From a virus (taxonomy: Duplodnaviria > Heunggongvirae > Uroviricota > Caudoviricetes), in the IMG/VR virus record IMGVR_UViG_3300042868_008486, positions 108,810 through 172,809 of that record: a stretch of 64,000 bases of DNA; one strand, written 5' to 3'. This document shows, piece by piece, positions 3,039-41,041 of this stretch; position 1 is the stretch's first letter, and every line of letters begins with the position of its first letter. Under the pieces are notes generated by a model. It was not told where the DNA came from, did no database searches, and was given only the letters and a program-made list of their open reading frames with translations. The translations under genes were made by a program, and so were the position numbers.

Positions 3039-3302
3039 CTATTTATGTTCGTGAATAAAAAATGTTCCTTGTACTACACCCCAAGATGATTCTTCTTTGA
3101 ATGTGTATGTTACCGCCTCATCTGTTGATGTCATCGGTCTTGTTAAATACCAAATTTGGTTTTCTTTCCAAGTGACATTAACTAATTTATTACCAGAAGG
3201 TAAATGTAAATCACCTTCACCGCCAAAATTTTTAACTCTTGAGTTTTCAGTACAAGAAAATAAGCCAAGACCTAAAACCAACCCTAATAATGTTTTTCTC
3301 AT
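3039..3302 (-). CDS. putative lipoprotein
   Basis: Signal peptide plus lipobox-like LGLGLFSC at N-terminus. 87 aa. Confidence 0.5.
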   Translation of the reverse strand: MRKTLLGLVLGLGLFSCTENSRVKNFGGEGDLHLPSGNKLVNVTWKENQIWYLTRPMTSTDEAVTYTFKEESSWGVVQGTFFIHEHK

Positions 3303-3794: not shown

Positions 3795-3991
3795 TTTCCG
3801 TATTTTGCTTTTAAAATTTTACCTTCACTTTCATAATCAGTCACCGTAATAATATACGTTTCAGTTAAATTAGTTGTTTGAGAACTATCAACTAATTGAT
3901 AACTTTCTGATAAACAATATGTTTTTGCATCATCAAACGTCATCCCGATTATTGAATCACAAATGTCGTGTTTAAATTTTTTTCTTACCAT
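3791..3991 (-). CDS. hypothetical protein
   Basis: 66-aa ORF. Confidence 0.4.
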   Translation of the reverse strand: MVRKKFKHDICDSIIGMTFDDAKTYCLSESYQLVDSSQTTNLTETYIITVTDYESEGKILKAKYGK

Positions 3992-3992
3992 A

Positions 3993-4310
3993 TTATTTAT
4001 TTAATTGTTCGTCTCTAAATTTGTGAAATTCTCTGTCATCAATATCAACAACACCATCTAAAAACATACTAGTAATATCGTGTATGAGGATTTTAATTTT
4101 ATACTTATCCGCCATATGTTTAACAAATTCTAATTGTTCTTCAGTACAAATCAAATAACTTACAATGAATCCGTCATCATCAATATCATCAGTGGACTCA
4201 ACGTCAACAAAACTGTTAGCTTCATCACGTTCATCTTGTGTCATTTGTTCTGTTATGATGTCATTTTCTTCAGGGGTAATACCAGTATCAATTCTATAGA
4301 CTCGTCTCAT
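3993..4310 (-). CDS. hypothetical acidic protein
   Basis: 105 aa, D/E-rich. Confidence 0.45.
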   Translation of the reverse strand: MRRVYRIDTGITPEENDIITEQMTQDERDEANSFVDVESTDDIDDDGFIVSYLICTEEQLEFVKHMADKYKIKILIHDITSMFLDGVVDIDDREFHKFRDEQLNK

Positions 4311-4404: not shown

Positions 4405-5910
4405 TTAAACCGTTTGTGATGCCAATTGTGTTAGACGTTCACGGATATCAGTTAAAGTCGTTTCGTTGTAGAATTCACCATCTTTGTAGATAGTTTTCAA
4501 CTCACCACGTTTTTCTGTGTCCCAACTAACTTTATCAGTTAATTGATACTCACCGAATGCGTCAGTAACACATAATAATCCTGTTGCAGATTTCTTAGTT
4601 CCGTCGTCAGTGATTGGGTCCTTGAAGATTTCTCTTCCTTCACCATTAACCTCAACATAAGTTGCTTTCATCGCGAAACCAAATGTGTCTCTTGTATTGT
4701 ATTGGTATGTGAATGAACCGATACCTAATACTACGTTTGTTGATGCGAATCCTTTCGCCTCCAATCTTTCACAGATTTCATCCGCTCTGTCAATAGTGAT
4801 TGAGTCACCATAGATTGCTCCGATGTGGGGGTCAAGAACTTTGTAACCTTGTTCATTAACTGTTCCTCCGAATACATCCCAAAGTAATTCAATTACTCCT
4901 TTATATTTTGGATGTGTTAAATCTAATTGTGCGTTCTCAACAACATCTCTATAATCTCGAGATATAACTTGTTCTCCACATAAGATATCTACAGGGTTTC
5001 CTGAGTCAGGACGAATAACTAATTTACCATCACGACCTAAGATTTCATCTTTTAATGTTACTAAGTGTTCGGTACATACTTTCCATAAGTCCCAAGTATC
5101 AGATACTACTGATAAGATACCTTTTGGATATGTCTCCAACAATCTTCGGAATGTTTCAATTTCATCTTCTTTACCACCAGCACACATTACTGAGTGTTCT
5201 GTTGCCGGTACTGAACCTCCAACAAATCCTGTTTCATTGTAGAAACGTCTCGCTCCGTAGATTGCTGGTAATGAGTCAGTTCCATTGAATGATGTCAAGT
5301 GACCTAACCCTGATGTGATTGTTGCGTCAGGTGAATCCAAACCTCTCATTGAGAAGTCGTGACCTTGCCACAATACAAACCCAACATTATCTTTATCTGT
5401 TTTCTCAGCCCACTTCGTTAACACTTTTTTGTATGTGTAAGCGATTGTTGCCGATGTCATAGGTTTCCATAACAAGTTTGAGATAATAGTCTCTAAGAAG
5501 TTAGGTAACCAATAGAAGTCAGGTAATGTATTATACACTGTCAATACAGGAACTTTGATTGGAACTAATGTCCCTTCCGTGATTGCTTTAACTGTGATTG
5601 GTAGATAACCCAAGTCGTGTAATTTCTCAATGTGTGTTGTATCATACTCAGTTCCTAAGTACAACGTTAACTCATTTTTGATTTCACGACAAACCGTTTC
5701 TTTCGGTTGATTGAAGAATCCTTCTTGAAAGAAAGAGTGAATGTTTTTCACCATCATTTGTTGTCCAAATGAAACTAATTGGTCACACCCTTTAGGTGCG
5801 TATTTGTTACTTCTTGGTGTGAAGTTTGAATACACTAATGTTGTTCCTTTAGGGTATTGTTCGTGATGCGATGTTTTGTACCCATCCGTTAATAAAAACG
5901 CGTTAATCAT
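4405..5910 (-). CDS. nadV: nicotinamide phosphoribosyltransferase family protein (NadV or Namat-like)
   Basis: 501 aa, NAMPT-like length and motifs (LLTDGYKTSHH, FNGTDSLPAIYGARRFY). Adjacent to a Prs-family gene. Confidence 0.8.
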   Translation of the reverse strand: MINAFLLTDGYKTSHHEQYPKGTTLVYSNFTPRSNKYAPKGCDQLVSFGQQMMVKNIHSFFQEGFFNQPKETVCREIKNELTLYLGTEYDTTHIEKLHDLGYLPITVKAITEGTLVPIKVPVLTVYNTLPDFYWLPNFLETIISNLLWKPMTSATIAYTYKKVLTKWAEKTDKDNVGFVLWQGHDFSMRGLDSPDATITSGLGHLTSFNGTDSLPAIYGARRFYNETGFVGGSVPATEHSVMCAGGKEDEIETFRRLLETYPKGILSVVSDTWDLWKVCTEHLVTLKDEILGRDGKLVIRPDSGNPVDILCGEQVISRDYRDVVENAQLDLTHPKYKGVIELLWDVFGGTVNEQGYKVLDPHIGAIYGDSITIDRADEICERLEAKGFASTNVVLGIGSFTYQYNTRDTFGFAMKATYVEVNGEGREIFKDPITDDGTKKSATGLLCVTDAFGEYQLTDKVSWDTEKRGELKTIYKDGEFYNETTLTDIRERLTQLASQTV

Positions 5911-5929
5911 AAATTATTTATTTTTTGGT

Positions 5930-6085
5930 TTATTGTAATACTTCAATTGAATAGGTTGTTTTCTCATCCCCAATTTCAAGGGTGTGAATTGTAAGTCCAA
6001 AGGATTCTAACACTTCACTAATTTTGTTAACCGTAGAAGCTTTATCACTCCCGTGAACTAGCTCAAATGTTTTTACTTCTTTCAT
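5930..6085 (-). CDS. small hypothetical protein (51 codons, MKEVKTFELVHGSDK...)
   Basis: Fills the gap between the NAMPT-like and Prs-like genes. Below the 60-aa track cutoff. Confidence 0.25.
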   Translation of the reverse strand: MKEVKTFELVHGSDKASTVNKISEVLESFGLTIHTLEIGDEKTTYSIEVLQ

Positions 6086-6103
6086 AATACAATATTAATT
6101 AAA

Positions 6104-7003
6104 TTATTTGAATACATCAAATCTTGTTACAAAATTTTCTACTTCTTCATTACTAATTGAGTTAGTTGTGAATATGTGTTCGAATGAATTTTTCAAATCA
6201 TCAAACCCTCTTGAGAAAATCCCGTGACTAACAATTAAGTAAATTTTGCCTGTGAAGTTTTCATTTTCTTTTATCGCTTTCGCAATATTAAGGAATGTCC
6301 CTCCACCATCACAGATATCATCAACAATGAATAAATCTTTATCCAACACATCATCAGTTAATGGGACAAGTGTTTTAGATAGTTTACCATCAATGTCTCG
6401 GTATTTTGAACATACCAAAACATCCTGATTAGATTTGAATGAGTCGTTAACTGAATACACTTTCTTCAACGCTCCGGCATCAGGTGAAACATAAACAACC
6501 TTAGACATATCACTAATGATTTGACCTGTCATCATCCAATATTTTTGTAACGAACTCCTAACCAAGTCAATGTTACCTGATTTACTGAAGTTTTGAAGAC
6601 AAGCCTCCAACACATCTGAATGGGGGTCAACAACAGTTACCTTGTCAAACCCTTGTAGGTTAATGATTGGGGCAATTACATCTTTAATATAATTCACACT
6701 ACCAATCGAAAACTTACGGTCACTCCTTGCCCCTAAGAAATAGGGAACATAGAGTTCAATTTTTTTAACACCCAAGTTTTTCAATGCTTGATTAGCACAA
6801 ACAATTAACTCAACATCTTTGAAGGAATTCATTCGACTTCTAATCTCAACCCCATCTTTGAAAAACTTCGACACATCATAAAAATCAGTTGGGTCCTGTA
6901 CTATAATATCAATGGATTGTTGTCCGTCAGGGAACTGACTAACTTTATACCTTAATCTACCTGACAATTTGTCAGTGTCTTGTCTTAAATCTAATACTAG
7001 CAT
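6104..7003 (-). CDS. prs: ribose-phosphate pyrophosphokinase family protein (Prs or Adps-like)
   Basis: PRPP-binding loop LFIVDDICDGGGT and VSPDAGALKKV motif. 299 aa. Confidence 0.8.
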   Translation of the reverse strand: MLVLDLRQDTDKLSGRLRYKVSQFPDGQQSIDIIVQDPTDFYDVSKFFKDGVEIRSRMNSFKDVELIVCANQALKNLGVKKIELYVPYFLGARSDRKFSIGSVNYIKDVIAPIINLQGFDKVTVVDPHSDVLEACLQNFSKSGNIDLVRSSLQKYWMMTGQIISDMSKVVYVSPDAGALKKVYSVNDSFKSNQDVLVCSKYRDIDGKLSKTLVPLTDDVLDKDLFIVDDICDGGGTFLNIAKAIKENENFTGKIYLIVSHGIFSRGFDDLKNSFEHIFTTNSISNEEVENFVTRFDVFK

Positions 7004-7006
7004 TTT

Positions 7007-7264
7007 TTACTTATTTTCAATTAAACTTTTATCATAACACCATATTGGTGTTTTTTCTCCAACATATGAACCACTAACATTGAAATAGAAATGTTCTAAC
7101 GCATCTTCATATGACATATTGTCTTTCATTAGTATCTCAATTGATTTACTAACTGAGTATATTAACCTCATCGTACTTTCATCAACACCAATTATGGCAT
7201 CATCAAACCCATCGGCCTTTAAAAAGGTTTCACCCTCAAATGTATCAATAATTTTTTCAATCAT
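7007..7264 (-). CDS. hypothetical protein
   Basis: 85-aa ORF. Confidence 0.45.
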   Translation of the reverse strand: MIEKIIDTFEGETFLKADGFDDAIIGVDESTMRLIYSVSKSIEILMKDNMSYEDALEHFYFNVSGSYVGEKTPIWCYDKSLIENK

Positions 7265-7643
7265 TACAATCTTTTTTTAAAATTTTATCAATGTATTTAT
7301 ATTCCGTAAATGATGGTTGTAAATCCCATTCAACTAACGATTTAATAATACCCATAGTTTCATTTGTGACATACTTCTTTATGTTAGTTTTAAATATACT
7401 TAATAAAACCTCATTAGTTTGTTCACTATCAAACCCATATAATTGTATTGATGGTCTAAAATACCAATAATTAAACCCAACATACAATCTATCCAACCCT
7501 AAACAAAACAACCAATTGTTATCTTTTTTTTTAATGATGTATAATATATTGTCCCCATCTTTAATGACTTCACAATTATTAAGTAGGATTTCACCTCGTT
7601 TGATAAAATCCTCACTTAACTTTTTATACAATTTATCATTCAT
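7257..7643 (-). CDS. hypothetical protein
   Basis: 128-aa ORF. Confidence 0.5.
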   Translation of the reverse strand: MNDKLYKKLSEDFIKRGEILLNNCEVIKDGDNILYIIKKKDNNWLFCLGLDRLYVGFNYWYFRPSIQLYGFDSEQTNEVLLSIFKTNIKKYVTNETMGIIKSLVEWDLQPSFTEYKYIDKILKKDCND

Positions 7644-9543: not shown

Positions 9544-9567
9544 GTTGCGGGATAGGATTCGAACCTA
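9544..9567 (-). ncRNA. tRNA-like 3' fragment (T-arm only, no partner acceptor strand found)
   Basis: ATAGG-ATTCGAA-CCTAC T-arm. No complementary 5' acceptor strand within 60-400 nt. Confidence 0.2.
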
Positions 9568-10002
9568 CATCATCGGATACTAACCTCCAATATGTTACCA
9601 CTTACACTACTCCGCTATACTACTGAATCCAATTCAGGTGGACTGAGAAATTGTATCTAAATCGTTTTCTTTTCTCACCTTACCACAGACCTCATATTGT
9701 CGACCATATGATTAATCCTGACTTTAAATAACATAGATAATGGTTCGGCCTTTTATGTCAGTCGCTCGACGTGTTATTACCCCAATATCCCAATTCCGTT
9801 CCCCCTAACTATATTGGGTTCCTTGCACCATACCCTCTAATATTGGAGTATGAGGCTGAACCCTCAAGGATTGGTAGCATCTATTGTTATGTTACTGTCT
9901 GCATTCAGTTCAGTAGTTAATTGTGATGAATCATTTACTCGGTCGCAGCCATACCATTCTTTCAGGTAGGTCCCCCTCGCTCTTATCATCATTGAGCCAC
10001 GT

Positions 10003-10193: not shown

Positions 10194-10312
10194 AATCAGG
10201 GTGGGACTTGAACCCACAAGGTAACATTCGGCTTCAAGGCTCTCCTATATACCGTTCATAGGATGCAGTTACCACTTTACTCGTCTTATGCGTCTACCAA
10301 TTCCGCCACCTG
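10194..10312 (-). ncRNA. long tRNA-like RNA, family member a (119 nt)
   Basis: T-arm GTGGG-ACTTGAA-CCCAC. Acceptor AGTCAGG/CCTGATT with one G-U pair. 5' end AGTCAGGTGGCGGAATTGGTAGACGC matches the tRNA-Leu D-arm. Middle is about 35 nt too long for a type-II tRNA. Confidence 0.4.
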
Positions 10313-10444
10313 ACTATTTTTTATAATAACCCTTTATATAAAACGTAATATATAAAAAAACATACTCCAATTGTAATACATATAATAGTTGTTACTTGTG
10401 CTGCAGGATGTAAAGTTTCCATTTTATTTTATTTTAAAGTTAGT

Positions 10445-10519
10445 AGATAGGATTGGATTCGAACCAATGACGCATAATACAAATCAATGTACCCGCTCTG
10501 ACCTCTGAGCTACCCATCT
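10445..10519 (-). tRNA. tRNA-like gene, 75 nt
   Basis: Canonical UAGCUCAGAGGUCAGAGC D-arm. T-arm ATTGG-ATTCGAA-CCAAT. 7-bp acceptor with one G-U pair. Anticodon stem GUACA/UGUAU with a 6-nt loop, which is atypical. Confidence 0.45.
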
Positions 10520-10531
10520 ATATTTTTTTGT

Positions 10532-10640
10532 AGTCAAGACAGGAATCGAACCTGTGTATCATCAAAGTACTTTGATGGTATGTTTATACTTCATACCCTG
10601 CTTTTACCATAAAGGTGTGTGTCTACCATTCCACCACCTG
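10532..10640 (-). ncRNA. long tRNA-like RNA, family member b (109 nt)
   Basis: T-arm ACAGG-AATCGAA-CCTGT. Acceptor AGTCAGG/CTTGACT. Family 5' end AGTCAGGTGGTGGAATGGTAGAC. Confidence 0.4.
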
Positions 10641-10776
10641 ACTATATTTTTTGTTACTCAACCCCTCACGTCCTTTTACTCTTGGGGTTAAAGGTCTTGC
10701 GGACCACCATTACGGATTTATCATACTAGGAAGACGCTCAGTATATAAATCTTGCACCTCTCTGAAGTAACTTGTG

Positions 10777-10846
10777 GCTCAAGTGGGAATCGAACCCACA
10801 CCTTGATTTTTAGAGAATCCTATTCTAACCTTTTAACTATTGAACC
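10777..10846 (-). tRNA. tRNA-like gene, 70 nt
   Basis: T-arm GTGGG-AATCGAA-CCCAC. Acceptor GGTTCAA/TTGAGCC with one G-U pair. Possible anticodon loop UAGGAUU. Confidence 0.35.
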
Positions 10847-12031: not shown

Positions 12032-12229
12032 TGTCAAGAGAGGACTCGAACCTCTATGAATTATAATTGATGTTAGTTGGCACTCTCAGAGAGGATATCG
12101 CTTATTATTTTCATCAACCTTATTGGAATGTATTACGTAACGGCTATTTACCCAACTTGTGTACCGTAATCTTCTGCCCATTCCATTCTAACCGCAGCCG
12201 TTTAGCGTCACCCTTTCCGCCACTTGACT
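12032..12229 (-). ncRNA. long tRNA-like RNA, family member c (about 198 nt)
   Basis: T-arm AGAGG-ACTCGAA-CCTCT at 12039-12055. Family 5' end AGTCAAGTGGCGGAAAGGGTGACGC at 12205-12229. Acceptor 6 of 7. No other T-arm in between. Confidence 0.3.
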
Positions 12230-12384
12230 AAAAATGACTTTACCTTACAAAGTCTAAGTAGGTTTAGTTGAGGACTTTCAAATCTTAATCGTCTATATGA
12301 CTCCTTCCTCTCAGTGTATCGTTTATTTACTCGTCGGGCATAGTATCTGAGTTTTCTGTGTGCTGCCATCACACTTACAATCGT

Positions 12385-12500
12385 AGCCAGAACAAGATTC
12401 GAACTTGTAAGACACAGTAATACAGTACTGCGTCATCCCTGTATGGATATGTGCGTCTACCAACGAGCGAGGACACCCCACTCCATTCCGCCACCTGACT
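12385..12500 (-). ncRNA. long tRNA-like RNA, family member d (116 nt)
   Basis: T-arm ACAAG-ATTCGAA-CTTGT. Acceptor AGTCAGG/TCTGGCT with two G-U pairs. D-region carries an insertion (GGAATGGAGTGGGGTGTCCTCGCTCGTTGGTAGACGC). Confidence 0.35.
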
Positions 12501-12671
12501 AAAAATGTGTGTTTTTAAATTATCCCTAGAACACACAAACTATGCCGACATACGATTCGGAGAGCGTCCACGCCAACATATGTGTAAACCCGAAGGTCTT
12601 TTTATTTCAACCCATATCTGTAATCTCTATCTTCGTTCCTTAGCGGTGCACCACTAGAGGGCTAATTCAGT

Positions 12672-12785
12672 AGTCAGGACAGGACTCGAACCTGTTCGAT
12701 TTCACCGTAGGACGTAACGAGACTGCTACTTTCAGAGTGTTACTATATCCCCTCACCTCTGCGTCTACCCATCCGCCACCTGACT
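12672..12785 (-). ncRNA. long tRNA-like RNA, family member e (114 nt)
   Basis: T-arm ACAGG-ACTCGAA-CCTGT. Perfect 7-bp acceptor AGTCAGG/CCTGACT. 5' end AGTCAGGTGGCGGATGGGTAGACGC. Discriminator A, no encoded CCA. Confidence 0.45.
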
Positions 12786-12867
12786 CGGACTCGAACCGTT
12801 GAAAACACACACCTTTCAGTGCCAACAAAACCCTGACCCCAAAGTTTTATTGTCAGTCGCCAGGGTA

Positions 12868-12977
12868 GGACTCGAACCTACACCCTATGACTTGTACCTC
12901 ACCATAGGGACTTACGTTGTTTTTAAAAGAGTGGTATCACCCCACTGTAGCGTCTAACCAATTCCGCCACCTGACTT
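12868..12977 (-). ncRNA. long tRNA-like RNA, family member f (110 nt)
   Basis: T-arm GTAGG-ACTCGAA-CCTAC. Acceptor 6 of 7. 5' end AGTCAGGTGGCGGAATTGGTTAGACGC. Confidence 0.4.
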
Positions 12978-13062
12978 GTTACTTAGGCGAATATACTCAA
13001 ATGCGGTACACTTAGATTTCCAATTCAATACGCCACTTGTATAAAGAGCCTTATAACCAAAT

Positions 13063-13152
13063 TTGAGGTTGAGAACCTCTGTGTTGTAGTGCTTAAATCT
13101 GTCCACTCATATTCTTGTTTCCTTCTCAAGGGAACAACACAAATAATCAGTC
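13063..13152. repeat. direct repeat copy 1 (GAGGTTGAGAACCTCTGTGTTGTAG ... TTCTCAAGGGAACAACAC)
   Basis: Imperfectly repeated at 13236-13340. Each copy holds the hairpins GAGGTT-GAG-AACCTC and TTCC-TTCTCAAG-GGAA. Confidence 0.6.
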
Positions 13153-13235
13153 GCTCGCTTTAGAGTCAGTCGCCCATTGTATAGCAACGCATATACAAAG
13201 GACAACACAGGAATCTTTGTACCTGTACTGATTAT

Positions 13236-13340
13236 TGTTTGAGGTTGAGAACCTCTGTGTTGTAGGGTACTATTCTCCCTTAACCCTCTTTAGCATCATA
13301 CATTCCTTTCTCAAGGGAACAACACAATAATAAATCCCTG
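13236..13340. repeat. direct repeat copy 2
   Basis: Shares the 25-mer gaggttgagaacctctgtgttgtag and ctttctcaagggaacaacaca with copy 1. Confidence 0.6.
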
Positions 13341-13638
13341 TACTCTCAGTAAGTAATGTTATAGATAGGCCCAAACCCCTATCCTCCGTAGCTCAACTAT
13401 TTATTTCAACCACTCAAATTACCTTATGAGATTTATGTCTATTTCAAGTATATTGTTATAACATCTAACCCCTAAACAACTACACTCTGAATGTGTATAT
13501 CTCCCATACTTCGCTCCCATCCCTATTCTACGATAGGTGAGTCCCATAGCAAAATCTGTTTAGTCATTAGCAGGGGAATAATATTTAAAATGGTGACTAC
13601 TCCCTCAGAGCTACCAACCCGCACCAATGAATTGATAC

Positions 13639-13662
13639 GAGCTAGGGAGGACTCGAACCTCC
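13639..13662 (-). ncRNA. tRNA-like 3' fragment (T-arm GGAGG-ACTCGAA-CCTCC), partner strand not found
   Basis: Canonical T-arm, no complementary 5' acceptor. The 7-mer just before the T-stem (gagctag) recurs directly upstream as gagctac. Confidence 0.2.
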
Positions 13663-13675
13663 AAGTCACCATTTT

Positions 13676-13699
13676 AATCGACATAGGACTTGAACCTAT
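13676..13699 (-). ncRNA. tRNA-like 3' fragment (T-arm ATAGG-ACTTGAA-CCTAT), partner strand not found
   Basis: The 7-mer before the T-stem (aatcgac) is repeated directly at 13733-13739 rather than inverted. Confidence 0.2.
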
Positions 13700-13755
13700 A
13701 CGGGAGCACCTATAACCCTCCAATCGACTATTTAATATTTCAAAGAACTTTTAGA

Positions 13756-13831
13756 ATCTGAGGTGGGAATCGAACCCACACTAAGTCAACCTTTACAGGA
13801 TTTGGAACCACTCCTCATTACGCTCTCAGAT
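13756..13831 (-). tRNA. tRNA-like gene, 76 nt
   Basis: T-arm GTGGG-AATCGAA-CCCAC. Perfect 7-bp acceptor (atctgag / ctcagat). Internal arms not canonical by eye. Confidence 0.4.
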
Positions 13832-13854: not shown

Positions 13855-14271
13855 TTATTTTTGTTCTGACCTAATAATTTCAATTAATTTATCAATACAT
13901 TCAGATTCAGCTTCAGGATATGTTCTATATAATAAAGAATATTGTCCAATCGTATTTTCCCACCCCCATTCTTCTGAAGCTAAATCATTTGGATTACCAA
14001 AAAAACGTGTGTAGGTATAACAGAATTTAGGTTCTGTCGTACAATCAGTTAATATCTCAGGGAATATCTTATGTGTATCTCTAAACCATTGGAAAACCTG
14101 TGATTTAAGTGGTGCGATTGTATATGTTTCATCACCAACACCATTCATATAAAATGTATGTTTACCGTCTTTTTTATATAATGAACATTCACTCCCAAAC
14201 CAACTATACTTAATATACCCCAATTCTTTAAGTAATAAGGCTTGGTCATATGTGACAAATAAATCTACCAT
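13855..14271 (-). CDS. hypothetical protein
   Basis: 138-aa ORF. Confidence 0.5.
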   Translation of the reverse strand: MVDLFVTYDQALLLKELGYIKYSWFGSECSLYKKDGKHTFYMNGVGDETYTIAPLKSQVFQWFRDTHKIFPEILTDCTTEPKFCYTYTRFFGNPNDLASEEWGWENTIGQYSLLYRTYPEAESECIDKLIEIIRSEQK

Positions 14272-14309: not shown

Positions 14310-14633
14310 ATGGGTTATGTGTATTTAATTGTTGAGTGGGGTTCAACACCTGAGCGATACAAATTGGGTATCACAAAGAACGACCCTAAACTACGATTAA
14401 AAACCCATCAAACTTCAAACCCCCACGAACTAGTCTTAATACGGACATATAAGTCGGAACATTACCACAAGATTGAATCTTGGATGAAACGTGAATATTT
14501 CATATATGGTCAAGAGGGTGGAACCGAATGGTTTGAATTACCCTCTGAGATTGCATCTAATTTCACCCAAGAATGTAAACGTATTGAGGACGTGTTTAAC
14601 GACCTAATAAAAAGTGGTAACCCTTTTATTTAG
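14310..14633 (+). CDS. T5orf172/GIY-YIG-like domain protein
   Basis: YVYLIVEWG...YKLGITKND...RLKTHQ...EWFELP pattern typical of the T5orf172 (MUG113) family. Confidence 0.5.
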   Translation: MGYVYLIVEWGSTPERYKLGITKNDPKLRLKTHQTSNPHELVLIRTYKSEHYHKIESWMKREYFIYGQEGGTEWFELPSEIASNFTQECKRIEDVFNDLIKSGNPFI

Positions 14634-33868: not shown

Positions 33869-34303
33869 TCAAATACCACGCATCATTTCACGATTAATAT
33901 CTCTCTCTTTGATTGAATTTCGTTTATCGTATAAGTTTTTACCTTTAGCCAAAACAATTTCCATTTTGATTAACCCACGTTCATTTCGAAAAAGACGATA
34001 TGGGACAATCGTTAAACCATTAATTAATTCTTTTTCTAATTTCCTTAACTCCTTTTTCTTCATTAAGAGTTTACGTTCCCGGTTAGACTCGTGACTATAT
34101 GCAACATTATTACTCGTAACATTCATTCCTTTAACAAATAACTCACCTTTATTAAAATAACAATAGGTATCCACCATTGAAACTAAGTTGTTGGTAATTG
34201 CTTTAACTTCAGACCCTTGGAGTTTTAACCCAACGATAAATGTCTCAACAAAGTGATATTCAAACTTAACCTTTCGGTTTACTATGTTAACGGAATTTTT
34301 CAT
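33869..34303 (-). CDS. smpB: SsrA-binding protein SmpB
   Basis: NRKVKFEYHFVETFIVGLKLQGSEVKAI ... ERKLLMKKKELRKLE...IVLAKGKNLYDKR align block-for-block with bacterial SmpB. Likely start is the internal ATG at 34303. The track ORF extends to 34366 through a hairpin. Confidence 0.75.
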   Translation of the reverse strand: MKNSVNIVNRKVKFEYHFVETFIVGLKLQGSEVKAITNNLVSMVDTYCYFNKGELFVKGMNVTSNNVAYSHESNRERKLLMKKKELRKLEKELINGLTIVPYRLFRNERGLIKMEIVLAKGKNLYDKRNSIKERDINREMMRGI

Positions 34304-34325
34304 ATGAACAAATATAATAAAAAAA

Positions 34326-34358
34326 CCCCAATAAAGATTTACTCTATTGGGATTTTTT
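34326..34358. terminator. hairpin plus T-run, terminator or attenuator
   Basis: CCCAATA-11 nt-TATTGGG, then TTTTTTT on plus and an A-run before it. Upstream of SmpB on minus. Confidence 0.4.
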
Positions 34359-34444
34359 TCAACCATAGTAAGAAAGGGGTTAATGGTATTTTGTGTAAAA
34401 TATAAATATTACTAAATTTTAAAAAGTTTTAGATATTTATCATT

Positions 34445-38203: not shown

Positions 38204-39163
38204 CTACCAACAAGTAATAATGACTAATCCGTGACCACCGTCACCACCCGCACCACCGGCTGCGTTTTGTGCGGAACCACCTCCACCACCACCACAACCG
38301 TGACCACCATCACCTCCAAATCCACCAACTCTACCCGCAGTACTTGATGACCCACCACCAGCACCACCTGTGTAAAATAATGGCGTATCAGTATTACCAC
38401 CTGAACCATCAACTTGGTCTCCCATTCCGTGACCACCATCAATAACAGTTGCTGAATTTGCGGTTCCACCACTAAGTGTTGGTATAATACCTGTACCTGT
38501 AATGTTACCACCATTCGCAGTTGCACCACCCGCAGAGTTCCCACCACCACTAGCACCCGCAGAAACAGGTGATATTAATGTAATTGAGTTACCCGTACCA
38601 CCACCACTTGAACCACCAACAACTCCGATTTGGCCAGCAACAGGATTTATTTGACCTAACTGAGGAAATATAAATGAAGTTGAGTAAGTCCATATTGTTC
38701 CCGCAGCCCCTGCAGTACCATTAACTGATGTTGTTCCACCACCACCACCTGTTGGGGCGACATTACCATTTTTCATTAATACCGCAGTAGTTCCCGTTGA
38801 GGGGATTACAGAAACATAAGAATGTTCTCCACTACCACCTATTCCACCATTACCATTAACGATACCACCTGTTCCACCGACACCACCTCTACCTACTTGA
38901 ACGAACAATGTGTCAGGTAATAATGACGCAGGAAAAAGTCCTGCCGCGAATGCTGAAGAACCACCTCCACCACCTCCTGTTCCTGAGTTGTTAGTATTTC
39001 CACGACCTCCACCACCGCCAGCACCACCACCTATACATAAAATATAAACGAAAGATGCGTTATTTGGTTTTGACCAAGTTTGCCAAGCAGTTGCTCCTGA
39101 TGAATTAACCCTAAAAACTTGATTACTATTTTCTTTACCGGGTAAGTTAAATATATCTATCAT
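38204..39163 (-). CDS. glycine-rich repeat protein, paralogue 1 (putative fibre/adhesin)
   Basis: Conserved N-terminus MIDIFN...NQVF...WQTW.KP and conserved C-terminus GG.GGDG.VIIT.W. The middle is a G-rich low-complexity region. Confidence 0.6.
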   Translation of the reverse strand: MIDIFNLPGKENSNQVFRVNSSGATAWQTWSKPNNASFVYILCIGGGAGGGGGRGNTNNSGTGGGGGGSSAFAAGLFPASLLPDTLFVQVGRGGVGGTGGIVNGNGGIGGSGEHSYVSVIPSTGTTAVLMKNGNVAPTGGGGGTTSVNGTAGAAGTIWTYSTSFIFPQLGQINPVAGQIGVVGGSSGGGTGNSITLISPVSAGASGGGNSAGGATANGGNITGTGIIPTLSGGTANSATVIDGGHGMGDQVDGSGGNTDTPLFYTGGAGGGSSSTAGRVGGFGGDGGHGCGGGGGGSAQNAAGGAGGDGGHGLVIITCW

Positions 39164-39169
39164 TATTAT

Positions 39170-40114
39170 TTACCAATATGTTATTATGACTAATCCGTCA
39201 CCACCTCTACCACCATTACCACCTTGGTTAGTTATTCCGGCTCCACCGCCACCTCCACCACTACCATAGGCTCCGTGACCTCCTTGTCCACCAGGTCCAC
39301 CATCTGATGAACCACCACCCGCACCTCCTAAGAAAACTAAAGGTTCTGTGGAGTATCCATTAGTGTTCGGGTTAAATGACATATAACCACCACTACCACT
39401 ACCACCCGGTGTTGTGTTAGTAGCTGAACCACCCGCAGGTCCACCTGTCATTGTGGGGATATTACCACCCGCATTTACATTACCTCCCGCTTGAGCAGTC
39501 CCACCATTCATTCCCGCACCCGCAGCACCCGGTGTTGTTATACCACTAATAGTGATTGAATTTGGTATTGGGGTTGTTTGACCTAAAACACCTGGCAAAC
39601 CATCAAATGCGGGTACTAAACTAAATTCTGAGAATATACCTGTAGTTTCACTCCAAAGAGTTCCCGCAGTTCCCGCAGTTCCACCATTTAATCCTGAAGC
39701 ACCACCACCCGCAGCCGCAGTTCCACTTTGATATAAAACATTTGATGCGGTTTTTCCTGTATCAGAAGCTACCAAAACATATGATAATGTTCCTGCCCCA
39801 CCGTTACTGTTAGTTGTCCCACCAATTCCCGCAGAACCACCACCACCAACTTGGATGTGTAGGATTTCAGGTAAGTAACTAGCGGGTACTAAGGCGTTCA
39901 TTCCTGCGGATGAACCACCACTACCACCACCACGTCTAGCGGTCGCAGTTCCAGCACCTTGACCACCACCACCTCCACCTCCACCACCAATTAAGAAGAA
40001 ATGAACGAATTGACAATTTTGAGGTTTAATCCAACTATAGAATGAATTTATTCCATTGGCATAAAAAACTTGTCTGTTTTGACTACCGTCAACTATATTA
40101 AAAATATCTATCAT
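39170..40114 (-). CDS. glycine-rich repeat protein, paralogue 2
   Basis: Same architecture as paralogue 1. Confidence 0.6.
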   Translation of the reverse strand: MIDIFNIVDGSQNRQVFYANGINSFYSWIKPQNCQFVHFFLIGGGGGGGGGQGAGTATARRGGGSGGSSAGMNALVPASYLPEILHIQVGGGGSAGIGGTTNSNGGAGTLSYVLVASDTGKTASNVLYQSGTAAAGGGASGLNGGTAGTAGTLWSETTGIFSEFSLVPAFDGLPGVLGQTTPIPNSITISGITTPGAAGAGMNGGTAQAGGNVNAGGNIPTMTGGPAGGSATNTTPGGSGSGGYMSFNPNTNGYSTEPLVFLGGAGGGSSDGGPGGQGGHGAYGSGGGGGGAGITNQGGNGGRGGDGLVIITYW

Positions 40115-40117
40115 AAT

Positions 40118-41041
40118 TTAAGTAACTGTTACAATAACGAATCCGTCACCACCACGACCACCGATTCCTGCGGTTGAGTTACCTCCGGCTCCTCCACCAC
40201 CTCCACCACAACCGAATGAACCATCACCACCTTTACCTCCAACACCTAATGTTTGTGAAGCCGCACCACCACCAGCACCACCACTAAAGAACATTGGTGT
40301 TTTAAAGTTTGGTCCGATGAAGTTTTCTCTTGTCGCATAACCATTATTACCCGGATTGGCGGTTGCACTCTGAACTGCGGTGTTAGTACCACCTGAAATC
40401 GTTGGGAAATCTAAAATACCCACAATACTTGCAGATGCCCCTAAAGTTCCAACCGAACTACAACCCGCACCACCCGCACCACCTGTGAACGGAATACCTG
40501 ATGGTGTTACGTTAGTTGCGGGAGTACTTGATGACCCACCTATACCACCGGCTTGACCTGCATACGCCGAAACCAAACCAACTTGACCTAATATGATATC
40601 CGCTTGGACAATTATTGTTCCAGCATTTTGAGTTAATGTTGTTCCCGCACCCAATGTTCCACTTTTCATTAATATATTATAACGTGTTGAAATATCAGGA
40701 ATTGAACAAACATAACTTAAACCTCCAACACCACCAGCACCATTACCTGACGCTCCACCAATACCACCACCACCAACTTGAATATATAACATATCGGGTA
40801 AAGTAAAAGCGGGAACGGTTATGTAAGCATACGCGGCAGAACCACCTCCGTTACCGCCACTTCGTGTTGATGCCGCACCTGTCGCCCCACCACGTCCACC
40901 CGCACCACCTCCTACTAAGAAGAAGTTAACGAATTTACAATTAGGTGGTTTAATCCAAGTTTGCCAAGCATCAGTTCCTGCAAAATAAAAAACTTGGTTT
41001 TTTAAACTATTATCATTTATATGATTATAATCTATACCCAT
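40118..41041 (-). CDS. glycine-rich repeat protein, paralogue 3
   Basis: Same architecture, ends GGRGGDGFVIVTVT. Confidence 0.6.
   Translation of the reverse strand: MGIDYNHINDNSLKNQVFYFAGTDAWQTWIKPPNCKFVNFFLVGGGAGGRGGATGAASTRSGGNGGGSAAYAYITVPAFTLPDMLYIQVGGGGIGGASGNGAGGVGGLSYVCSIPDISTRYNILMKSGTLGAGTTLTQNAGTIIVQADIILGQVGLVSAYAGQAGGIGGSSSTPATNVTPSGIPFTGGAGGAGCSSVGTLGASASIVGILDFPTISGGTNTAVQSATANPGNNGYATRENFIGPNFKTPMFFSGGAGGGAASQTLGVGGKGGDGSFGCGGGGGGAGGNSTAGIGGRGGDGFVIVTVT

What the first reader, a model, noticed from the sequence alone, without database searches (positions are those of the whole stretch)
12978..13640. 650-nt non-coding segment with paired roughly 100-nt direct repeats and multiple short hairpins: candidate structured ncRNA(s)
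No credible ORF lies here. The track ORFs 13491-13723 overlap tRNA-like elements and sit on both strands.
- Two imperfect direct repeats (13063-13152 and 13236-13340) each contain GAGGTTGAGAACCTC (a 6-bp hairpin), TGTGTTGTAG, and CCTTCTCAAGGGAACAACAC.
- Further hairpins are GATAGG-CCCAAACC-CCTATC (13363-13384) and CCTAT-TCTACG-ATAGG (13522-13538).
- The composition is less AT-rich than the coding DNA.
- This could be a pair of paralogous sRNAs, a riboregulator, or tmRNA- or intron-like RNA. It is not CRISPR-like: only two copies, and no regular spacing.
Basis: seen in the sequence. Interest (0 to 1): 0.55.

Follow-up and report, generated by a model that had tools for sequence, protein, structure and literature searches.

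The report
Kissing-loop RNA repeats in phage tRNA array
The two repeats are copies of a widespread, apparently undescribed folded RNA that large phages place between their tRNA genes; a larger version of it lies in a highly transcribed region of a cultured crAss-like phage, and its function is unknown.

Summary
The two repeats (window 13237-13328 and 13061-13143, minus strand) are copies of an 80-160-nt RNA module. I found it in more than 119 uncultivated viral contigs, in no Rfam family and in no paper searched.

Its fold has four parts:
- a closing helix P1 (GUGUUG/CAACAC);
- a hairpin P2 whose loop carries UUGAGAA;
- a variable hairpin;
- a 3' hairpin P3 whose loop UUCUCAA pairs with the P2 loop.

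This loop-loop pairing is supported by compensatory changes at three positions in at least ten independent sequences.

The module normally sits 4-6 nt upstream of a tRNA 5' end and 4-5 nt downstream of a tRNA 3' end. It is therefore probably excised from the tRNA transcript as a stable small RNA. That step is inferred, not shown.

The same core forms part of a 200-300-nt stand-alone RNA. One member lies in an intergenic region of crAss-like phage phi14:2 that was reported as abundantly transcribed, with unknown function.

In the window, the repeats belong to a 753-nt cassette (12977-13729) of tRNA-derived structured RNAs. A close relative (89-98% identical in the aligned flanks) lacks the whole cassette.

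Function is unknown. tmRNA, intron, ribozyme and CRISPR readings are not supported.

The parts
13237..13328 (-). Copy A of the kissing-loop RNA module (92 nt).
   Evidence: Covariance model R1 scores 83.2 bits, E=1.5e-14. Coordinates of the parts are:
- P1: 13320-13325 with 13257-13262.
- P2: 13316-13319 with 13303-13306.
- P2 loop UUGAGAA at 13308-13314 pairs with the P3 loop UUCUCAA at 13245-13251.
- P3 stem: 13252-13255 with 13241-13244.
13061..13143 (-). Copy B of the same module (83 nt). Its P2 loop is one A shorter. Its variable hairpin is homologous to that of L116.
   Evidence: R1 scores 70.6 bits, E=5e-12. Coordinates of the parts are:
- P1: 13135-13140 with 13081-13086.
- P2: 13131-13134 with 13119-13122.
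- Loop-loop pairing: 13123-13129 with 13069-13075.
- P3 stem: 13076-13079 with 13065-13068.

13144..13236 (-). Segment Y: a cloverleaf-like RNA. It has an 8-10-bp closing stem and three arms, but no T-loop motif. It occupies the position that a tRNA takes after copy A in other phages.
   Evidence: MFE -31.7 kcal/mol, z=-4.4, 0 of 200 shuffles fold as well. No homologue was found in the loci held.
12977..13060 (-). Segment Z: a stem-closed RNA in the tRNA position after copy B. It contains a degenerate tRNA-Leu-like 5' motif (ACAAGUGGCG).
   Evidence: The fold is weak (z=-1.7). The motif similarity is repeat family D8. No homologue was found. This part is inferred.
13329..13584 (-). Segment X: 256 nt, unexplained.
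   Evidence: z=-1.5. The only similarity found is 42 nt to L001 (13458-13498). Possible tag frames are listed.
13585..13677 (-). Circularly permuted tRNA-like element. Its order is:
- a 14-bp outer helix, which takes the place of the anticodon stem;
- a T arm;
- an acceptor stem closed by a hairpin extension;
- U8-A9;
- a D arm.
   Evidence: MFE -44.6 kcal/mol, z=-7.4. Model R2 finds the same arrangement in other phages at weak to marginal scores: L053 9398-9480 (30.3 bits, E=1e-4), L065 (19.2 bits, E=0.16) and L091 (17.5 bits, E=0.46). Their stems have a different sequence but still pair. L053 lies between tRNA-Phe and tRNA-Asn.
13675..13729 (-). tRNA-like RNA that lacks the anticodon arm: acceptor stem, D arm and T arm only.
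   Evidence: Fold. Homologues in L125 and L007 have an identical D arm and covarying acceptor and T stems (AGUCGAU/GUCGAUU versus AGUUAGG/CCUGACU).
12977..13729 (-). The whole 753-nt cassette. It is an insertion or deletion relative to the closest relative found, with AGTC at both junctions.
   Evidence: L153 is 89% identical over window 19999-13717 and 97.6% over 12981-12772. In L153 the sequence runs from tRNA-Tyr and 'ATTAAAT' straight into AGTCAGGTGGCGG. R1 finds no copy of the module in L153.
13754..13831 (-). tRNA-Tyr(GUA), the upstream flank of the cassette.
   Evidence: ARAGORN.
12852..12976 (-). tRNA-Leu-like RNA and downstream flank of the cassette. It has AGUCAGG-UG-GCGGAAUUGGUUAGACGC at its 5' end and a T arm at 12868-12878. 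The 3' end is approximate.
   Evidence: ARAGORN does not call it at default settings.

Best explanation
The two repeats are paralogous genes, on the minus strand, for a small structured RNA module that large phages embed in their tRNA arrays.

Fold (shown):
- Helix P1 (GUGUUG/CAACAC) closes a three-way junction.
- The junction holds hairpin P2 (UUCC/GGAA, with a 9-nt loop) and a hairpin of variable sequence and length.
- Hairpin P3 follows directly 3' of P1.
- The P3 loop UUCUCA(A) pairs with UUGAGAA in the P2 loop. This gives a compact pseudoknotted core and leaves the variable hairpin exposed.

Processing (inferred):
- The module lies a few nucleotides from a tRNA 3' end on one side and a tRNA 5' end on the other.
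- It is therefore co-transcribed with the array.
- RNase P cuts on its 3' side, at an AAAU-type leader. The tRNA 3'-end machinery cuts on its 5' side.
- The result is a stable RNA of about 90 nt, as happens with the T4 tRNA-cluster RNAs C and D.

Action (inferred):
- The same core is part of a 200-300-nt stand-alone RNA that is not next to tRNAs.
- That RNA lies in an abundantly transcribed intergenic region of the crAss-like phage phi14:2.
- The core therefore most likely acts in trans as a folded RNA. It could bind a conserved protein or RNA partner, or self-associate through its two complementary loops.
- It is less likely to be a cis signal for tRNA maturation.

In this genome the two copies are part of a 753-nt accessory cassette of tRNA-derived RNAs, which a close relative lacks.
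For: Family:
These give 121 distinct sequences.
- R1 scores the homologues at 44-89 bits.

Structure:
- 96% of cells in the proposed pairs form standard pairs, against 42-54% when the partners are slid by 1-3 columns.
- All ten one-sided changes in P1 give G:U or U:G pairs and none gives a mismatch. This also fixes the strand.
- P3 changes between GC and AU with both sides changing.
- P2 is UCAC/GUGG in phi14:2 and ACC/GGU in L015.

Loop-loop pairing:
- G19>U occurs with C117>A in both sequences recovered, L167 and L168.
- A20>C occurs with U116>G in all seven distinct sequences that have a recognisable 3' part.
- G17>U occurs with C119>A in L169.
- A20>G gives a G:U pair in L191.
- L130 carries a double change.

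Context:
- 36 of 73 distinct copies are followed by a tRNA or tRNA-like gene with 7 of 7 acceptor pairs and a T arm. In 34 of these 36 it starts 2-4 nt after CCUCAA.
- 21 of 73 are preceded by a T arm plus acceptor strand, in 17 of the 21 ending 5-6 nt before GUGUUG.

Expression of a relative:
- R1 scores 44.6 bits (E=7e-8) at phi14:2 positions about 3130-3210.
- This lies inside the g004-g005 intergenic region.
- That region was reported as rightward-transcribed, more abundant than most mRNAs, and not declining late in infection (doi 10.1101/2020.03.07.982082).

Cassette:
- Absent from L153.
- Reproduced in six independent assemblies.
Against: - There is no transcript data for this phage, and no convincing promoter or terminator in the array.
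- In the window neither copy is followed by a recognisable tRNA. They are followed only by segments Y and Z, so the processing scheme is extrapolated from other phages.
- The close relative L153 does without both copies, so they are dispensable or redundant.
- The probes used to collect the family fixed parts of the sequence. Conservation of the probed stretches is therefore partly imposed by the search.
- The mapping of the module onto the reported phi14:2 transcript rests on gene numbering in the RefSeq record, not on read coverage that I could inspect.
- The molecular function is not known. 'Trans-acting' is favoured only because the stand-alone form has no constant neighbouring gene.
Confidence: 0.7

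Rival explanations
1. A cis-acting spacer for tRNA maturation. The module exists only to fold independently between tRNAs. It would present an optimal short leader to RNase P and a defined trailer to the 3' processing enzymes, and would have no function once released.
For: Spacing to the flanking tRNAs is tight: 2-4 nt after CCUCAA, and 5-6 nt from the end of the upstream acceptor strand to GUGUUG. Leaders are of the AAAU type. A genome can carry several copies, each next to a different tRNA (L119 has four copies).
Against: The same core, with the same invariant loops and the same covarying loop-loop pairing, occurs in a stand-alone RNA that is not adjacent to tRNAs. A simple insulator would not need near-invariant loop and junction sequences across very different phages. 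In the window the copies are not followed by real tRNAs.
Confidence: 0.13
2. Part of the segment (13677 down to about 13330) is a circularly permuted, two-piece tmRNA gene. The permuted tRNA-like element would be the alanine-accepting domain, and the RNA downstream would carry a tag frame, working with the phage's own SmpB.
For: - The window encodes SmpB at 33869-34366(-) (Pfam E=2.9e-41), yet no tmRNA is detected.
- The order 'helix strand, T arm, acceptor 3' strand, loop, acceptor 5' strand, D region, helix strand, long 3' RNA' is the topology of permuted ssrA genes. This comparison rests on my own knowledge.
- GCU-AAU-GAC-UAA (Ala-Asn-Asp-stop) lies 13 nt after the helix.
- Some stand-alone relatives of the module sit next to canonical phage tmRNAs (L106, L049).
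Against: - The acceptor stem has G2:U71 and G3-C70, not G3:U70, and the discriminator is G.
- The only Ala-initiated frames are 3-4 residues long or implausible, and ARAGORN reports 'tag not identified' even at 60-70% thresholds.
- No Rfam tmRNA family reaches even E=10 here.
- The best-scoring similar element, in L053, is 81 nt long and flanked directly by tRNA-Phe and tRNA-Asn, with no room for a coding piece.
- The relative L153 lacks the cassette.
Confidence: 0.06
3. The module is a new self-cleaving ribozyme that trims tRNA precursors. It would be an analogue of the HDV-like theta ribozymes that sit next to phage tRNAs.
For: It has a compact pseudoknotted fold with near-invariant junction and loop nucleotides, and it lies immediately next to tRNA ends. 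There is precedent for ribozymes at phage tRNA 3' ends (PMC10879173).
Against: - No ribozyme family in Rfam matches at E<=10.
- The helix order does not fit the HDV fold. In the HDV fold the 3' strand of P1 follows P3 directly; that detail is from my own knowledge.
- The distance to the downstream tRNA varies from -1 to +10 nt relative to the usual position. The upstream gap includes 4-5 extra nucleotides beyond the discriminator.
- The stand-alone form has no tRNA to process.
Confidence: 0.06
4. The repeats are DNA-level elements with no RNA function of their own. They could be recombination or homing-endonuclease target sequences that shuffle tRNA cassettes, or decayed tRNA pseudogenes.
For: - The cassette is an indel with AGTC microhomology at both junctions.
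- A T5orf172/MUG113-domain ORF lies at 14310-14633(+), next to the array.
- HNH endonuclease genes sit inside relatives of the module.
- The neighbours Y, Z, the arm-less tRNA-like RNA and the permuted tRNA-like element are tRNA-derived.
Against: Substitutions respect RNA pairing on one strand only. They are wobble-only in P1 and compensatory in P2, P3 and the loop-loop helix. DNA-level selection does not predict this. The module has no T arm, D arm or acceptor logic, so it is not a tRNA remnant. A relative's locus is reported as abundantly transcribed.
Confidence: 0.05

Closest known systems
Abundant 'long non-coding RNA' from the g004-g005 intergenic region of crAss-like Cellulophaga phage phi14:2 (Drobysheva et al., bioRxiv 10.1101/2020.03.07.982082; Nature 2021)
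   Same: The phi14:2 region contains a clear homologue of the module's core. It has P1, P2, the UUGAGAA/UUCUCA pairing and the ACAACAC-AAAUGAG junction, and R1 scores it at 44.6 bits. The paper reports the region as transcribed on the same strand, more abundantly than most genes and throughout infection, with unknown function.
   Different: The phi14:2 RNA is the 200-300-nt stand-alone form. It has an upstream GNRA hairpin and two further covarying hairpins, and it ends in GGGUGCUAA. The window copies are the short, tRNA-flanked form with a closed P3 hairpin. The paper describes neither a structure nor a family. I could not inspect the read coverage.
T4 RNA D / RNA C (species 2 and 1 RNAs, genes rnaD and rnaC) of the T4 tRNA cluster
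   Same: They are small stable RNAs encoded inside a phage tRNA array and of unknown function (PMC3014915, PMC9697503). RNA D has conserved ends around a variable middle. It shares GAUG-GUUCCCUGAG-AAGGAAU and CUUACA-U-CACAG with the module, including a compensatory change in the P1-like helix.
   Different: R1 gives only 11.4 bits (E=4.7) on rnaD, which is not significant. The GAGUAAGGAA stretch is not conserved among T-even relatives. RNA D has no P3 hairpin and no UUCUCA partner, and it ends in ...GCGCACCA. Homology is therefore a lead, not a result.
GOLLD and ROOL RNAs
   Same: [quoted passage not shown] GOLLD was first found in lake metagenomes. That origin is from my own knowledge (it is in the expanded name quoted). 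I did not look up the source environments of the samples here.
   Different: They are 580-800 nt long with many junctions. Neither Rfam model matches the window or the related loci. There is no sequence or architectural similarity.
HDV-like theta ribozymes next to phage tRNAs (PMC10879173)
   Same: They are small pseudoknotted RNAs that abut tRNA genes in phage tRNA arrays, including phages that carry suppressor tRNAs. This window also carries a tRNA with a CUA anticodon.
   Different: Theta ribozymes cleave at their own 5' end, within +/-5 nt of the tRNA 3' end, and have the HDV fold with a catalytic C. The module's helix order is different and no HDV family matches. Its tightest association is with the tRNA downstream.
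Bacterial Y-RNA-like YrlA / permuted tRNA genes (relevant only to the 13585-13677 element)
   Same: The element is a tRNA-like module with T arm, D arm and acceptor stem. The acceptor stem is closed by a loop, and the RNA ends emerge from the anticodon-stem side. The comparison with YrlA and with permuted tRNA genes of algae rests on my own knowledge.
   Different: There is no match to Rfam YrlA at this position. No TROVE/Ro gene was found among the 54 window proteins scanned. There is no anticodon loop to restore by ligation. In L053 the outer stem ends at the neighbouring tRNAs.

Membership tests
Any Rfam 15 family | A match to a curated covariance model | tested here: not met
   In 12978-13640 nothing reaches a gathering score. 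At E<=10 the only hit inside the segment is a chance mir-52 match (15.8 bits, E=8.6). No family matches the module in 16 related loci.
phi14:2-type stand-alone phage RNA ('class B') | The shared core: P1 GUGUUG/CAACAC, the P2 loop UUGAGAA pairing with UUCUCA, and the ACAACAC junction | tested here: met
   Both window copies have the core. R1, built only from the tRNA-linked form, scores stand-alone members at 44-53 bits. The loop-loop covariation is seen in both forms.
phi14:2-type stand-alone phage RNA ('class B') | An upstream GNRA hairpin, a hairpin AGUAGUUAA/UUAACUAC, a hairpin ACCCU/AGGGU, and a 3' end GCUAA | tested here: not met
   These elements are absent around both window copies. 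They are present and covary in 19 aligned stand-alone members. The window copies are therefore a distinct short variant.
T4 RNA D (rnaD) | Location in a phage tRNA cluster on the tRNA strand | tested here: met
T4 RNA D (rnaD) | Statistically supported sequence and structure similarity | tested here: inconclusive
   R1 places a hit on rnaD, but at 11.4 bits and E=4.7, among 14 hits of similar score. The shared motifs are partly not conserved within T-even phages.
tmRNA (two-piece / permuted) | G3:U70 in the acceptor stem (the alanine identity element) | tested here: not met
   The acceptor is G1-C72, G2:U71, G3-C70, with discriminator G. G:U falls at position 3 only if an eighth pair is assumed.
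tmRNA (two-piece / permuted) | A tag reading frame with a resume codon and a hydrophobic C-terminus | tested here: not met
   The only Ala-initiated frames that are short (3-4 residues) are AND*, AYL* and AKEG*. ARAGORN reports 'Tag not identified' even at lowered thresholds.
tmRNA (two-piece / permuted) | Detection by ARAGORN or Rfam tmRNA models at normal thresholds | tested here: not met
tmRNA (two-piece / permuted) | The partner protein SmpB encoded or available | tested here: met
   An SmpB gene lies at 33869-34366(-), Pfam PF01668, E=2.9e-41.
HDV-like / theta ribozyme | The nested double-pseudoknot helix order with a catalytic C, and cleavage at the element's own 5' end next to a tRNA 3' end | tested here: not met
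   No HDV-type Rfam hit. The helix order of the module differs. There is a gap of 4-5 nt beyond the discriminator. Cleavage itself cannot be tested here.
Group I intron | The P3-P7 pseudoknot topology with a G-binding P7, splice-site U:G and terminal G, and interrupted exons | tested here: not met
   No Intron_gpI hit. The order of helix strands does not fit. The upstream hairpin has no conserved U:G pair, and the flanking genes are unrelated. The only resemblance is that HNH genes sit in a loop of two stand-alone members.
CRISPR array | Short repeats at regular spacing, separated by unique spacers | tested here: not met
   There are two copies, 176-185 nt apart, of an 83-92-nt structured unit. 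The repeated parts are the two ends of each unit.
YrlA / Y RNA (13585-13677 only) | A Ro-binding helix and a match to the YrlA model, with a Ro (TROVE) gene | tested here: not met
   No YrlA hit at this position. No TROVE family was found among the 54 window proteins.

The most novel reading that the evidence does not exclude
The conserved core may be the functional heart of a new class of phage RNA with a biochemical activity of its own. One option is a ligand- or protein-binding fold, or a catalytic one. Another is an RNA that self-assembles through its two complementary 7-nt loops pairing between molecules. In either case the core would come in two formats. The first is a stand-alone RNA that is abundant in crAss-like phage infection. 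The second is a set of tRNA-punctuated copies, each displaying a different variable hairpin. Together with the neighbouring tRNA-Leu-like RNAs, whose inner parts are hypervariable, the array would then be a battery of scaffolded variable RNA domains aimed at host or defence factors.
Probability: 0.12. Interest if true: 0.85.

Novelty: new variant of a known kind. Interest (0 to 1): 0.65.

Why it matters
Phage tRNA arrays are usually read as tRNAs plus spacers. Here the 'spacer' is a strongly conserved RNA with a covariation-supported pseudoknot. It is present in well over a hundred large uncultivated phages, and the only cultured-phage homologue found is in a crAss-like phage.

- It gives a sequence and structure identity to one of the two abundant RNAs of unknown function reported in phi14:2 infection. 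That phage is cultured, so the family is experimentally accessible.
- It offers a possible, unproven link to the T4 RNAs C and D, which are still listed as having unknown roles.
- Annotating the family would remove spurious small ORFs, such as those withdrawn from the phi14:2 record.
- It would also explain assembly breaks in tRNA arrays.

Tried and rejected
- Rfam at gathering and at E<=10 thresholds on the window and on 16 related loci: no family for the module.
- blastn of the region and of the module against 50,697 phage records: nothing at first. A 30-nt probe gave one 20-nt hit, in Pseudoalteromonas phage HM1, with no GUGUUG next to it. I read it as a chance match.
- Searching papers for the literal core sequences: none found. 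The supplement of the 10,006-candidate viral RNA survey is not held, so I cannot say whether that survey lists the module.
- Genome collection scan: 20 hits, against about 35 expected by chance (my own estimate). Only 8 are real modules, all on metagenome-assembled contigs, so no host could be assigned.
- Hammerhead, twister, pistol, hatchet and HDV readings, checked by eye against remembered consensus sequences and by Rfam: no fit.
- RNase P RNA and group I intron readings of the stand-alone form: the strand order does not fit.
- Riboswitch or 5'-UTR reading of the stand-alone form: the downstream genes are unrelated.
- Neighbouring-gene enrichment across 139 loci: the recurrent proteins have no known function.
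- Promoter and terminator scans: no more hits than in shuffled sequence.
- Exact probe for the permuted tRNA-like element in viral contigs: no hit.
- TAG recoding, prompted by the tRNA with a CUA anticodon: no gain in ORF length.
- Thermodynamic tests: the two module copies alone are not exceptional (z=-1.9 and -1.5). The case for them rests on comparative data.
Full report
**1. Setting**

The window is AT-rich (about 31% GC). Its genes lie mostly on the minus strand. It carries phage-type genes:
- NAMPT and a ribose-phosphate pyrophosphokinase;
- DNA methylases;
- DnaJ;
- a sigma factor;
- SmpB.

It has no nucleotide match among 50,697 phage records.

Between about 9500 and 13850 the minus strand carries a dense tRNA region.
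- The T-arm motif GGTTCRANTCC occurs 13 times there. The whole window has 20 matches, against 6 expected.
- ARAGORN at default settings calls only four tRNAs.
- Many of the other units are non-canonical. Examples are six tRNA-Leu-like units that begin AGUCAGG-UG-GCGGAAU.

**2. The observation**

- 28 nt at 100% identity and 25 nt at 92% identity;
- exactly two covariance-model hits in the window, 13237-13328(-) at 83.2 bits and 13061-13143(-) at 70.6 bits.

GC is raised here. The ORFs are short, overlapping and on both strands. Six independent assemblies carry the same sequence. One of them spans both repeats, and two others break just upstream of the first repeat, at window position 13355, where the repeated units begin.

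**3. What the repeats are**

*How the family was collected.* Three probes were run against viral contigs.

| Probe | Result |
|---|---|
| 25-nt exact probe | 3 viral contigs |
| Two-anchor probe | 15 viral contigs |

Many of the contigs are 90-370 kb long.

*The shared pattern.* On the window's minus strand it reads:

GUGUUGUUCCCUUGAGAAAGGAA – variable 20-90 nt – (CU)ACAACAC-A-GAGG(NN)UUCUCA(NN)CCUC-AAA

*The fold.*
- P1 (GUGUUG/CAACAC) closes a junction.
- The junction holds P2 (UUCC/GGAA, with loop CUUGAGAAA) and a variable hairpin. The variable hairpin often has the form AGUG...CACU and abuts P1.
- P3 follows P1 directly.

*Pair counts on 59 sequences.*
- 96% of cells form standard pairs, against 42-54% when the partners are slid.
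- All ten one-sided changes in P1 give wobble pairs. This fixes the RNA strand.
- P3 changes between GC and AU with both sides changing.
- P2 is replaced by UCAC/GUGG in phi14:2 and by ACC/GGU in L015.

**4. The loop-loop helix**

UUGAGAA in the P2 loop is the exact complement of UUCUCAA in the P3 loop. Both were nearly invariant in the first collections, so I probed for variants of single loop positions.

| Change in the P2 loop | Change in the partner | Sequences |
|---|---|---|
| G19>U | C117>A (UUAUCA) | both recovered, in unrelated contexts: L167, L168 |
| A20>C | U116>G | all seven distinct sequences with a recognisable 3' part |
| G17>U | C119>A | the one recovered: L169 |
| A20>G | none; gives G:U | L191 |
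| Shifted GA | matching shift of UC, together with a compensated P1 | L130 |

Two kinds of sequence do not compensate:
- an A20>U variant (2 loci) keeps U116;
- copies whose loop is AACUCAA pair over only 4-5 positions.

I regard the loop-loop pairing as shown by covariation. Whether it forms within one molecule or between molecules cannot be decided from sequence.

**5. Genomic grammar**

I used a strict test for a neighbouring tRNA: seven of seven acceptor pairs plus a T arm.
- 36 of 73 distinct copies are followed by a tRNA or tRNA-like gene. In 34 of these 36 it starts 2-4 nt after CCUCAA.
- 21 of 73 are preceded by a tRNA 3' end, in 17 of the 21 ending 5-6 nt before GUGUUG.

The leaders are AAAU-like. 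From established knowledge of RNase P and of tRNA 3' processing, I infer that the module is released as an RNA of about 90 nt. This is inferred, not shown.

In the window the tRNA positions are occupied by other units:
- after copy A, by segment Y, a cloverleaf-like RNA (z=-4.4);
- after copy B, by segment Z, a weaker stem-closed RNA.

**6. A larger relative, and expression**

About 48 of the 141 occurrences collected have a different 3' continuation (ACAACAC-AAAUGAG-UUCUCA-GC...). These belong to a stand-alone RNA, in most members 200-300 nt long, with further parts:
- an upstream GNRA hairpin, with 10-11 double changes per pair;
- a hairpin AGUAGUUAA/UUAACUAC, which carries variable inserts;
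- a hairpin ACCCU/AGGGU;
- a 3' end GCUAA.

Other observations on this form:
- Its downstream genes are unrelated to each other.
- Some members have a T4-late-like TATAAATA just upstream.
- Two lie next to canonical phage tmRNAs.
- Two carry an HNH endonuclease gene inside a loop.

One member is in the cultured crAss-like Cellulophaga phage phi14:2. There it covers three tiny ORFs that have since been withdrawn from the RefSeq record.

The locus lies in the g004-g005 intergenic region. Drobysheva et al. report that region as follows:
- transcribed rightward;
- more abundant than most protein-coding genes;
- present from the first time point and not declining;

My mapping onto that region uses the gene names in the RefSeq record.

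**7. The cassette**

The closest relative I found is L153. It is 89% identical over 6.3 kb upstream and 97.6% identical downstream. In L153 the sequence runs from tRNA-Tyr directly into the tRNA-Leu-like unit. Window positions 12977-13729 (753 nt) are therefore an insertion or deletion, bounded by AGTC on both sides.

On the minus strand the cassette reads, in order:
1. a tRNA-like RNA without an anticodon arm (13675-13729). It is conserved in L125 and L007, with covarying stems;
2. a circularly permuted tRNA-like element (13585-13677, z=-7.4). L053, L065 and L091 show the same arrangement at weak to marginal scores (30.3 bits with E=1e-4, down to E=0.46);
3. segment X, 256 nt and unexplained (z=-1.5);
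4. copy A;
5. segment Y;
6. copy B;
7. segment Z.

**8. Alternatives considered**

*tmRNA.* This deserved a real test, for three reasons:
- the window encodes SmpB;
- the permuted element has the topology of a two-piece ssrA gene;
- a GCU-AAU-GAC-UAA frame follows it.

It fails on four counts:
- there is no G3:U70, no acceptable tag, and no detection at normal thresholds;
- the similar element in L053 lies between two tRNAs, with no room for a coding piece;
- L153 lacks the cassette;
- none of this concerns the two repeats themselves.

*Other readings.* The self-cleaving ribozyme, group I intron, RNase P RNA, riboswitch, CRISPR and pure-DNA readings are discussed under the rival explanations and the membership tests. 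None is supported.

*T4 RNA D.* The resemblance is suggestive: shared motifs, a compensated P1-like helix and the same genomic niche. It is not statistically significant (11.4 bits) and is only partly conserved among T-even phages.

**9. Verdict**

- *Shown:* a real, widespread RNA family with a pseudoknot supported by covariation. It is apparently undescribed, meaning it is not in Rfam 15 and was not found in the literature I could search. Two copies lie in this window, inside an accessory cassette of tRNA-derived RNAs.
- *Inferred:* excision by the tRNA-processing enzymes, and action in trans.
- *Unknown:* the biochemical function.

Noticed in passing
window 33869-34366 (-): A phage-encoded SmpB (Pfam PF01668, E=2.9e-41; the likely true start is the internal MKNSVNIV...). 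ARAGORN and Rfam detect no tmRNA anywhere in the 64-kb window.
   Followed up: partly
window 10199-10322, 10531-10650, 12032-12232, 12385-12507, 12672-12785, 12852-12976 (all -; approximate): Six tRNA-Leu-like units share AGUCAGG-UG-GCGGAAU.GGUAGACGC, a T arm and CCUGACU-A. The region where the anticodon and variable arms should be is 30-120 nt too long and hypervariable. ARAGORN misses them at default settings and calls them intron-bearing tRNAs of assorted identity only at lowered thresholds. The same family is the commonest downstream neighbour of the module in other phages.
   Followed up: partly
window 10647-10773 (-): A 127-nt non-coding element between the CUA-anticodon tRNA and a tRNA-like unit. 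It is 96.9% identical to L003 10982-11108 and L002 4491-4617, which are otherwise unrelated contigs. In those contigs it lies directly upstream of a copy of the module. It has no Rfam match.
   Followed up: partly
window 10774-10846 (-): A tRNA with anticodon CUA, which would read TAG. Treating TAG as sense hardly lengthens ORFs, and TAG ends only 2 of 55 long minus-strand ORFs.
   Followed up: yes
window 9544-9617 (-) and 10443-10519 (-): Two tRNAs with non-standard anticodon loops: an 8-nt loop (four-base 'ttag') and a 6-nt loop ('ga').
   Followed up: no
window 14310-14633 (+): A 107-aa ORF with T5orf172/MUG113 domains, a GIY-YIG-like family, on the opposite strand. It lies about 600 nt upstream of the RNA cassette (taken from the gene table of L159). 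It is a possible homing-type nuclease near an indel.
   Followed up: no
window 13855-14271 (-): A 138-aa protein of unknown function just upstream of tRNA-Tyr. It belongs to a family found in 22 of about 139 module-bearing loci, sometimes as 2-3 tandem paralogues. It has no Pfam domain and matches only PHROGs of unknown function.
   Followed up: partly
window 38204-41041 (-): Three tandem ORFs of about 310 aa, with 44-47% GC in a 31% GC genome. Two carry a glycine-rich domain (PF21722), and one has weak tail-fibre matches.
   Followed up: no
L005, L008, L011, L013, L014, L018, L070, L109, L114, L123 (directly 3' of the module): Another conserved RNA-like element of about 100 nt (UAUUAGUGAACUUCGGUACCCAUACCGCUGACGAUGGGCUAAG...). 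It lies between the module and the next AGUCAGG unit. It is absent from the window.
   Followed up: no
L039 about 3821-4216 (+), L026 about 6825-7310 (+); also L019 and L066: HNH (NUMOD4-like) endonuclease ORFs, each preceded by a terminator-like hairpin. In L039 and L026 they lie inside a variable loop of the stand-alone RNA, whose 3' part (UUAACUACGUGACCCUAC...) resumes after the ORF. In L019 and L066 the same ORF follows the RNA's 5' part, but no 3' part was found downstream.
   Followed up: partly
L053 9401-9481 (+); L065 5689-5755 (-); L091 590-670 (-): Stand-alone permuted tRNA-like elements, with the order T arm, acceptor stem closed by a 4-7-nt loop, then D arm. They lie between ordinary tRNAs. 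L053, L065 and the window element have G2:U71 in the acceptor stem; in L091 the stem reads as fully Watson-Crick. L065 and L091 are only marginal model hits (E=0.16 and 0.46). None has an anticodon loop.
   Followed up: partly
window 13572: The only difference between the window and two independent assemblies (L162, L163) across the cassette: T versus A on the minus strand, in segment X.
   Followed up: no
window 4405-7003 (-): An NAD-salvage pair: nicotinamide phosphoribosyltransferase and ribose-phosphate pyrophosphokinase. From my own knowledge, this pair is known from large T4-like and Vibrio phages.
   Followed up: no
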